From the NCBI RefSeq assembly GCF_009914755.1, contig NC_060947.1: 64,000 nt of DNA; one strand, written 5' to 3'. The stretch comes from the human T2T-CHM13v2.0 reference genome, Homo sapiens. The notes beneath the pieces are model-generated. The model ran no database searches and was not told the origin of the DNA. It saw nothing but the letters and a program-made list of their open reading frames with translations. The position numbers were made by a program, and so were the translations under genes. This document shows positions 12,601 to 15,600 of the stretch, in pieces (the first letter of the stretch is position 1; each line of letters starts with the position of its first letter).

Positions 12601-15600
12601 CTAAGATCAGAGCAGAACTGAAGGAAATAGAGACACAAAAAACCCTTCAAAAAATCAATGAATCCAGGAGCTGGTTTTTTGAAAAGATCAACAAAATTGA
12701 TAGACTGCTAGCAAGACTAATACAGAAGAAAAGAGAGAAGAATCAAATAGATGCAAAAAAAATGATAAAGGATATATCACCACCAATCCCACAGAAATAC
12801 AGACTACCATCAGAGAATACTATAAACACATCTATGCAAATAAACTAGAAAAATCTAGAAGAAATGGATAAATTCCTGGACACATACACCCTCCCAAGAC
12901 TAAACCAGGAAGAAGTTGAATCCCTGAATAGAGCAATAACAGGCTCTGACATTGAGGCAATAATCAATAGCTTACCAACCAAAAAGAGTCCAGGACCAGA
13001 TGGATTCACAGCCGAATTCTACCAGAGGTAGAAGGAGGAACTGGTACCATTCCTTCTGAAACTATTCCAATCAATAGAAAAAGAGGGAATCCTCCCTAAC
13101 TCATTTTATGAGGCCAGCATCATACTGATACCAAAGCCGGGCAGGGACACAACCAATAAAGAGAATTTTAGACCAATATCCTTGAATATCCTTGATGAAC
13201 ATTGATGCAAAAATCCTCAATAAAATACTGGCAAACCGAATCCAGCAGCACATCAAAAAGCTTATCCACCATGATCAAGTGGGCTTCATCTCTGGGATGC
13301 AAGGCTGGTTCAATATACGCAAATCAATAAATGTAATCCAGCATATAAACAGAACCAAAGACCAAAACCACATGATTATCTCAATAGATGCAGAAAAGGC
13401 CTTTGACAAAATTCAACAACGCTTCATCCTAAAAACTCTCAATAAATTAGGTATTGCTGGGATGTATCTCAAAATAATAAGAGCTATCTATGACAAACTC
13501 ACAGCCAATATCATACTGAATGGGCAAAAACTGGAAGCATTCCCTTTGAAAACTGCCACAAGACAGGGATGCCCTCTCTCACCACTCCTATTCAACATTG
13601 TGTTGGAAGTTCTGGCCAGGGCAATGAGGCAGGAGAAGGAAATAAAGGGTATTCAATTAGGAAAAGAGGAAGTCAAATTGTCCCTGTTTGCAGAAGACAT
13701 GATTGTATATCTAGTAAACCCCATTGTCTGAGCCCAAAATCTCCTTAAGCTGATAAGCAACTTCAGCAATGTCTCGGGATACAAAATCAATGTACAAAAA
13801 TCACAAGCATTCTTATACATCAACAGCAGAGAAACAGAGAGCCAAATCATGATTGAACTCCCATTCACAATTGCTTCAAAGAGAATAAAATACCGAGGAA
13901 TCCAACTTACAAGGGATGTGAAGGACCTCTTCAAGGATAACTACAAACCACTGCTCAAGGAAATAAAAGAGGATACAAACAAATGGAAGAACATTCCATG
14001 CTCATGGGTAGGAAGAATGAATATTGTGAAAATGGCCATACTGCCCAAGGTAATTTACAGATTCAATGCCATCCCCATCAAGCTACCAATGACTTTCTTC
14101 ACAGAATTGGAAAAAACTACTTTAAAGTTCATATGGAACCAAAAAGGAGCCCGCATTGCCAAGTCAATCCTGAGCCAAAAGAACAAAGCTGGAGGTATCG
14201 CACTACCTGACTTCAAACTATACTACAAGGCTACAGTAACCAAAACAGTATGATACTGGTACCAAAAAAAAGATATAGATCAATGGAACAGAACCGAGCC
14301 CTCTGAAATAATGCTGCATATCTACAACTATCTGATCTTTGACAAACCTGAGAAAAACAAGCAATGGGGTAAGGATTCCCTATTTAATAAATGGTGCTGG
14401 GAAAACTGGCTAGCCAGATGTAGAAAGCTGAAACTGGATCCCTTCCTTACACCTTATACAAAAATCAATTCAAGATGGATTAAAGACTTAAACGTTTGAC
14501 CTAAAACCATAGAAACCCTAGAAGAAAACCTAGGCATTACCATTCAGGACATAGGCATGGCAAGGACTTCATGTCTAAAACACCAAAAGCAATGGCAACA
14601 AAAGCCAAAGTTGACAAATGGGATCTAATTCAACTAAAGAGCTTCTGCACAGCAAAAGAAACTACCATCAGCGTGAACAGGCAACCTACAAAATGGGAGA
14701 AAATTTTCTCAACCTACTCATCTGACAAAGGGCTAATATTCAGAATCTACAATGAACTCAAACAAATTTACAAGGAAAAAACAAACAAACCCATCAAACA
14801 GTGAGTAAAGGACATGAACAGATACTTCTCAAAAGAAGACATTTATGCAGCCAAAAGACACATGAAAAAATGCTCACCATCACTGGCCATCAGAGAAATG
14901 CAAATCAAAACCACAATGAGATACCATCTCACACCAGTTAGAATGGCAATCATTAAAAAGTCAGGAAACAACAGGTGTTGGAGAGGATGTGGAGAAACAG
15001 GAACACTTTTACACTGTTGGTGGGACTGTAAACTAGTTCAACCATTGTGGAAGTCAGTGTGGGGATTCCTCATGGATCTAGAACTAGAAATACCATTTGA
15101 CCCAGCCATCCCATTACTGGGTATATACCCAAAGGACTATAAATCATGCTGCTATAAAACACATGCACATGTATGTTTATTGCGGCATTATTCACAATAG
15201 CAAAGACTTGGAACCAACCCAAATGTCCAACAATGATAGACTGGATTAAGAAAATGTGGCACATATACACCATGGAATACTATGCAGCCATAAAAAATGA
15301 TGAATTCATGTCCTTTTTAGGGACATGGATGAAATTGGAAATCATCCTTCTCAGTAAACTATCGCAAGAACAAAAAACCAAACACTGCATGTTCTCACTC
15401 ATAGGTGAGAATTGAACAATGAGAACACATGGACACAGGAAGGGGAACATCACACTCTGGGGACTGTTGTGGGGTGGGGGGAGGGGGGAGGGATAGCATT
15501 GGGAGATATACCTAATGCTAGATGACGAGTTAGTGGGTGCAGCGCACTAGCATGGCACATGTATACATATGTAACTAACCTGCACATTGTGCACATGTAC

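What the first reader, a model, noticed from the sequence alone, without database searches (positions are those of the whole stretch)
12660..12960. Sharp ~300-bp near-identity tract between copy A and the inverted copy C about 28 kb away
Seen: A 12677-12849 and the reverse complement of C 41161-41330 are almost identical. They share changes that B lacks: taCagaag (12723/41285), loss of the T in gcaataaaa, ggATatatc instead of ggggatatc, acaGact (12802/41207) and cacAtcta (12830/41179). A further shared change, tctgaCatt (12950/41060), lies just beyond. Both translate [21 protein letters not shown]. In this interval A also shows states I recall as older-subfamily (gaaaagatc, attgaggca). Inference: a discrete conversion tract between inverted repeats, probably C to A, meaning the two copies physically paired.
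Basis: partly seen in the sequence, partly recalled or inferred. Interest (0 to 1): 0.7.

Follow-up and report, generated by a model that had tools for sequence, protein, structure and literature searches.

The report
Gene conversion between inverted LINE-1 copies
About 400 bases inside a young LINE-1 retrotransposon copy on the human X chromosome match an older, inverted copy 28 kb away, most likely because DNA repair copied the older sequence into the younger one; this is a clear example of a known process, with no sign of an effect on a gene.

Summary
L1 copy A (12555-12964) and the inverted copy C (41046-41453) differ by 1 substitution in the first 368 aligned bases and by 4 in 408, against 6-8% in the flanks. 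No permutation (0 of 100,000) and none of 1,217 other pairs at least 3.5% diverged gave so long a run. A and C are each other's best hit among the 40 places scored per search. They share two changes seen in 0 of 57 unlinked L1s. A carries young-subfamily states at 22 of 26 diagnostic sites outside the tract and old states at 6 of 6 inside, so transfer ran from C to A. The flanks were not exchanged, so this assembly shows no net inversion. Best reading: non-allelic, non-crossover gene conversion, likely within the last few million years. Two extras: a second, older tract between another inverted L1 pair flanking UPRT exon 1, and a weaker hint of a reverse A-to-C tract just upstream. Conversion between repeats is well known, and no function is implied. 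Primate orthologues could not be checked.

The parts
12555..12964 (+). Converted tract in copy A (recipient), in the 5' third of ORF2; minimum 12605-12955; 12925-12940 may be an unconverted patch or later mutations
41046..41453 (-). Donor stretch in the inverted part of copy C
   Evidence: C holds old-type states at 29 of 32 diagnostic sites
9610..15633 (+). Copy A: near full-length young L1, L1PA3-like (lacks about 126 bp of 5' UTR that B has); ORF1 and ORF2 are broken in several places; degenerate target-site duplication; interrupts one older L1
   Evidence: subfamily label inferred from the deletion described in PMC7110667, not checked against a repeat library
40813..43551 (-). Copy C, inverted 5' part (matches A 10417-13188); older subfamily
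43550..45258 (+). Copy C, forward 3' part (matches A 13912-15631); with the inverted part it has the layout of a twin-primed insertion inside an older L1
24807..30870 (+). Copy B: near full-length older L1 between A and C; local control, no tract shared with A or C
12318..12519 (+). Possible second tract, reverse direction (A to C; C 41489-41690); moderate support only
   Evidence: 1 difference in 202 bp; A 0 and C 1 private changes; C has the young state at 12515; against it, 2 of 57 unlinked copies also match A over 12318-12497 and copy E has clean windows there
49011..49548 (+). Separate, older conversion tract in old L1 copy G (likely recipient)
   Evidence: 15/531 differences vs 57/409 just upstream; 12 shared rare states
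57717..58259 (-). Partner of that tract in inverted old L1 copy H; the pair flanks UPRT exon 1

Best explanation
About 350-410 bp of ORF2 in the young L1 copy A has the sequence of the older, inverted L1 copy C 28 kb away, with unexchanged flanks, most likely through non-allelic gene conversion in which a germline break in A was repaired from C without crossover. Shown: the tract, C as the nearest sequence found, the direction C to A and the absence of flank exchange. Inferred: a break or nick in A, strand invasion into C (about 93% identical), repair synthesis and non-crossover resolution such as synthesis-dependent strand annealing. C points the other way because of its own 5' inversion at insertion, not a later rearrangement. 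The event is inferred to be much younger than A's insertion: 0.14-0.5% change per copy since, against about 2.1% private change in A, roughly 1-3 million years (wide range, up to about 7). The tract carried C's 1-bp deletion into A's ORF2, but A has other lesions, so it is probably neutral.
For: 1/368 vs 6-8% divergence. Permutation and panel nulls not reached. Reciprocal best hits, 99% vs 96-97% for the next. Two shared changes in 0 of 57 unlinked copies. A young at 22/26 sites outside and old at 6/6 inside. Trees: A in the young clade (100/98) for the flank, A+C (98/94) outside the young clade for the tract. A is young-type again at 12965, 12986, 13040 and 13154 and runs on past C's end. The older L1s split by A and by C continue across each insertion with 17-bp and 12-bp overlaps, and target-site duplications are recognisable.
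Against: No primate orthologue or second human haplotype was seen, so A's state before conversion is inferred from paralogues. Genome searches scored only 40 of 1,043 and 40 of 1,461 candidates, so a closer third donor is not formally excluded. Several shared states recur in unlinked older copies. A shows the old state at 4 of 26 diagnostic sites outside the tract, so it is an early member of its lineage, which weakens each single site. Three differences cluster at 12925-12940, which a single clean tract does not explain well.
Confidence: 0.9

Rival explanations
1. Relic of inversion toggling: a crossover between A and C inverted the 28 kb between them, a second crossover restored it, and allelic recombination later joined a swapped A to an unswapped C.
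For: Inverted L1 pairs mediate inversions (PMC2603318; PMC9675761) and toggling is enriched on X (10.1101/2021.12.20.472354). The supplied annotation lists no exon between A and C, so an inversion could be tolerated. The possible reverse tract at 12318-12519 would fit repeated exchange.
Against: C has no young-type states in the tract, so there is no reciprocal swap. Flanks and target sites are in register. It needs at least three events instead of one. Most toggling inversions have flanking repeats of 10 kb or more, and the L1 pairs behind inversions have a median identity of 97%.
Confidence: 0.04
2. The donor was a third, unlinked L1 closely related to C, or an RNA/cDNA copy of C (both copies lie in introns of the annotated UPRT long isoform and of LOC124905200).
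For: Only 40 candidates were scored per search. Some shared states recur among older copies. cDNA-mediated conversion is described for yeast retrotransposons (PMC6598467).
Against: The best unlinked hits are 96-97% and none has more than 3 of 8 shared states. C itself lies 28 kb away and matches at 99%. An RNA route would still make C the donor and has no positive evidence here.
Confidence: 0.03
3. Assembly or polishing artefact: reads from C were used in the consensus of A.
For: Not checked against reads or another assembly.
Against: The tract keeps 4 substitutions and 2 indels between A and C, one a CpG-type change private to A. The copies are about 7% apart elsewhere. A second, older tract at 2.8% divergence shows that such tracts occur here.
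Confidence: 0.02
4. Chance plus a conserved region, or a chimera formed when A inserted.
For: The neighbouring 12318-12497 stretch is matched perfectly by 2 of 57 unlinked copies, so mutation density is uneven.
Against: The nulls were not reached and private states are shared. A chimera as old as A would have diverged about 4% (A alone has 26/1218 private changes), but 0.3-1.0% is seen (upper 95% bound 2.5%).
Confidence: 0.01

Closest known systems
Non-allelic gene conversion between neighbouring transposable elements (Alu, LTR; review PMC6598467, sections read; PMC8230782, passages)
   Same: Mosaic of subfamily-diagnostic sites in one copy, a nearby donor and identity above 89%. Old-to-young transfer is also described for Alu (12 cases, against 40 young-to-old).
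   Different: L1 rather than Alu; 28 kb apart, beyond the roughly 10 kb range reported for neighbouring Alus; the donor is identified by private shared changes.
Break repair of a LINE by conversion from other LINEs (Tremblay 2000; only the title and a citing passage in PMC3055243 seen)
   Same: Proposed mechanism: a break in one L1 repaired from another L1 in cis or trans.
   Different: That was an engineered break in mouse cells; this is a germline relic in a human reference genome.
Retrotransposon recombination-mediated inversions (PMC2603318, passages; PMC9675761, passages)
   Same: Inverted L1 pair several kb apart acting as recombination substrate.
   Different: No chimeric elements, target sites in register and no net inversion: this is the non-crossover outcome.
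Arm-to-arm conversion in X palindromes (PMC8981503, passages)
   Same: Conversion between inverted repeats on X.
   Different: Palindrome arms are tens of kb and over 99% identical. Here about 2.7 kb of 91-93% identical dispersed repeats carry one short tract.

Membership tests
Non-allelic gene conversion tract | Discrete stretch of identity far above the pair's background | tested here: met
   1/368 vs 6-8%; 0 of 100,000 permutations
Non-allelic gene conversion tract | Identifiable donor sharing derived changes absent from other paralogues | tested here: met
   Reciprocal best hits among 40 scored; two changes in 0 of 57
Non-allelic gene conversion tract | Non-reciprocal transfer | tested here: met
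   Both copies old-type at 6 of 6 diagnostic sites in the tract
Non-allelic gene conversion tract | Tree of the tract discordant with tree of the flank | tested here: met
   (26 and 30 rows, a subset of the panel)
Non-allelic gene conversion tract | Orthologue in an outgroup species retains the unconverted state | not testable with these tools
   No primate genomes are held (no relatives)
L1-mediated inversion | Chimeric elements with mismatched target-site duplications | tested here: not met
   A is young-type on both sides; flanks contiguous; target sites recognisable
X palindrome under concerted evolution | Long arms over 99% identical | tested here: not met
   91.3% over 2,779 columns
L1PA3 or younger (copy A) | 129-bp deletion in the 5' UTR | tested here: met
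   About 126 bp missing relative to B, as in 29 of 29 A-flank hits; feature from PMC7110667
L1PA3 or younger (copy A) | Match to the curated subfamily consensus | not testable with these tools
   No repeat library on hand
Twin-primed (5'-inverted) L1 (copy C) | Inverted 5' part joined to a forward 3' part with poly(A), inside one target-site duplication | tested here: met
   about 720 bp is missing at the junction

The most novel reading that the evidence does not exclude
Ordinary inverted L1 pairs on the human X act as weak proto-palindromes. Both conversion tracts in this window are between inverted copies (28 kb and 8 kb apart), and the A-C pair exchanged sequence in both directions in adjacent tracts, the first tract seeding the next. 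Such conversion would be common enough to overwrite subfamily markers, carry inactivating lesions into young full-length L1s and mark future inversion sites, including one that would flip UPRT exon 1.
Probability: 0.15. Interest if true: 0.6.

Novelty: new member of a known kind. Interest (0 to 1): 0.3.

Why it matters
It is a well-resolved natural case of L1-to-L1 conversion with donor, direction and boundaries known, over a longer distance than is usual for Alu conversion, and from an old into a young copy. It shows that single L1 copies can be mosaics, which matters for dating and subfamily calls. It also leaves a 350-410 bp stretch of about 99% identity between inverted repeats that could seed an inversion. 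No effect on UPRT or LOC124905200 is indicated. Two tracts in one 64-kb window suggest that a genome-wide count by orientation, distance and chromosome would be worth doing.

Tried and rejected
A panel chosen from C's own flank was not obtained (one search gave identities only, best unlinked 96%), so the older panel comes from hits to the tract and is biased towards sharing its states. Copy E (36367-39578) looked close to A and C near A 12319-12620, but shares no run of rare states with C: rejected as a third partner. A vs B, B vs C, A vs the forward part of C and A vs the inverted fragment at 23756-24573 show no tract. Orientation bias: 2 of 2 tracts are in inverted pairs, but 24 of 61 alignments of 600 bp or more are inverted, so about p = 0.15 and no evidence. 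A PRDM9-like 13-mer (motif recalled, not from a call) has 4 matches in the window, none within either A-C stretch; uninformative. Literature: ten searches listed no paper on this tract or on an inversion at UPRT, judged from listings and abstract starts. 'UPRT' has 0 occurrences in the main text of the inversion survey; its supplements could not be seen and may list this interval. Three primary papers asked for by recalled or cited id were not held.

Full report
Layout. A self-comparison of the window shows a nest of L1 copies. A (about 9610-15633, +) and B (about 24807-30870, +) are near full length. C (40813-45258) has an inverted 5' part (40821-43551, matching A 10417-13188) joined to a forward 3' part (43550-45255, matching A 13912-15631), the layout of a twin-primed insertion. 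A and C each interrupt an older L1 whose halves continue across the insertion with 17-bp and 12-bp overlaps, and degenerate target-site duplications are visible. A lacks about 126 bp of 5' UTR that B has, as do 29 of 29 hits to A's flank. This fits the 129-bp deletion that arose in L1PA3 in the great-ape ancestor (PMC7110667, passages). The label is inferred, not from a repeat library.

The observation. A and C differ at 40/584 and 38/590 sites upstream but at 1/368 in 12555-12924, where A and B differ at 17/369. Three further differences lie at 12925-12940, then shared states resume at 12950 and 12955, and A's own lineage state returns at 12965. With 105 differences in 2,025 sites, 0 of 100,000 permutations gave a run of 368 with at most one substitution; the same held on variable sites only. 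Of 1,653 pairs in the panel, the 1,217 other pairs at least 3.5% apart reached 286 at most. Searches of the window's genome returned C as the best non-self hit for A's tract and A for C's, at 99% against 96-97% (40 of 1,043 and 40 of 1,461 candidates scored).

Is the haplotype common? Partly. Among 57 unlinked copies (28 chosen by the tract, 29 by A's flank), 12723C occurs 11 times, 12802G 8 times, 12830A 4 times and the 12772-12773 pair twice (two near-identical paralogues). The lost T near 12757 and 12950C occur 0 times. Of 60 other copies, 25 carry none of 8 shared states, 19 one, 12 two, 4 three and none more.

Direction. The unlinked copies sort by flank sites into 32 young-type and 25 old-type; 4 near-identical paralogues were dropped from the old group, leaving 21. 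Of 32 diagnostic sites, A is young at 22 of 26 outside the tract and old at 6 of 6 inside (Fisher p = 2.3e-4). C is old at 29, young at 1 (12515) and neither at 2. Trees on a subset agree: A falls in the young clade for 11400-12317 (100/98; the tool flagged these bootstrap values as rough) and pairs with C (98/94) outside it for 12555-12964. C is therefore the donor. A is young on both sides and runs on past C's end, so there was no net crossover, unlike the chimeric elements of L1-mediated inversions (PMC2603318, passages).

Mechanism and age (inferred). The simplest account is a germline break in A repaired from C without crossover. Repair of a LINE from other LINEs is cited in PMC3055243 (passage; the original paper was not held). 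Whether C lay on the same chromatid, the sister or the homologue cannot be told. Divergence since the event is 1/368 to 4/408 for the pair (95% limits 0.007-1.5% and 0.27-2.5%). A has 26/1218 private changes. Taking about 12.5 million years for L1PA3 (recalled), the event is roughly 1-3 million years old, at most about 7. The cluster at 12925-12940 is either an unconverted patch or later mutation; no diagnostic site decides it. The imported 1-bp deletion shifts A's ORF2, which ends at about 12846, but ORF1 and the rest of ORF2 are also broken, so the event was probably neutral.

A possible reverse tract. In 12318-12519 A has 0 and C 1 private change, where about 4 and 5 are expected; 0 of 20 old-type copies have fewer than 2; and C holds the state of 29 of 32 young copies and 1 of 21 old ones at 12515. 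That suggests A-to-C transfer next to the main tract. Against it: there is no shared derived change, 2 of 57 unlinked copies also match A over 12318-12497, the older copies D and E have the same 12515 state, E has clean windows there, and the bounds were chosen after looking. I put it at about 55%.

A second tract. Scanning 93 local alignments found one other strong case: old copies G (49011-49548, +) and H (57717-58259, -) differ at 15/531 against 57/409 just upstream. They share 12 states seen in at most 1 of 12 unlinked relatives, 8 of them in none; a 13th listed site, 49460, is an alignment artefact and was dropped. The relatives differ from G by 34-44 of about 535. H is G's best hit of 40 scored, at 94% against 92%. 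The tract ends where H has a deletion. G's faster upstream decay (29/409 vs 16/409 private) suggests H as donor. The pair flanks UPRT exon 1, so a crossover would be expected to disrupt the gene (inference). Both tracts involve inverted pairs, but 24 of 61 long alignments are inverted, so no bias is shown.

Comparison. Non-allelic conversion between transposable elements is established, with raised rates within about 10 kb and on sex chromosomes (PMC6598467, parts 1-2 of 4 read), including old-to-young cases in Alu (PMC8230782, passages). This case meets four testable defining features; the orthologue test could not be run. It is not an inversion and not an X palindrome (PMC8981503, passages). 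Ten literature searches listed no report of this tract (listings only), and supplements of the inversion survey were not seen.

Verdict. Real, correctly interpreted, and a new instance of a known process. Interest 0.3.

Noticed in passing
window 49011-49548 (+) and 57717-58259 (-): Second, older conversion tract between inverted old L1 copies flanking UPRT exon 1: 2.8% divergence vs 13.9% just upstream, 12 shared rare states, likely from H into G.
   Followed up: yes
window 12318-12519 and 41489-41690: Possible reverse-direction (A to C) tract next to the main one, separated by a 35-bp stretch with 5 differences.
   Followed up: partly
window 40813-45258: Copy C is a 5'-inverted L1 with about 720 bp missing at the inversion junction, inserted in an older L1, within a nest that splits old copy G by about 13 kb (35425-48597).
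   Followed up: partly
window about 10375-10383: Copy A lacks about 126 bp of 5' UTR present in B, matching the ZNF93-escape deletion of L1PA3 and younger.
   Followed up: partly
window 13175-13195: Short tandem duplication of about 10 bp in A's ORF2, absent from the 29 young-type hits.
   Followed up: no
window 49940-50060: About 120-bp (TA/CA)n microsatellite, 90% self-complementary, inside old copy G, about 400 bp past the G-H tract.
   Followed up: no
window 23756-24573 (-): An 800-bp inverted L1 3' fragment inserted just before B; no conversion signal with A.
   Followed up: partly
L039, L057, L058: Three young L1 copies on contigs C4, C23 and C18 are only 0.6-0.8% apart over 2 kb, closer than the other young copies (1-2%); possibly one recent source lineage.
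   Followed up: no
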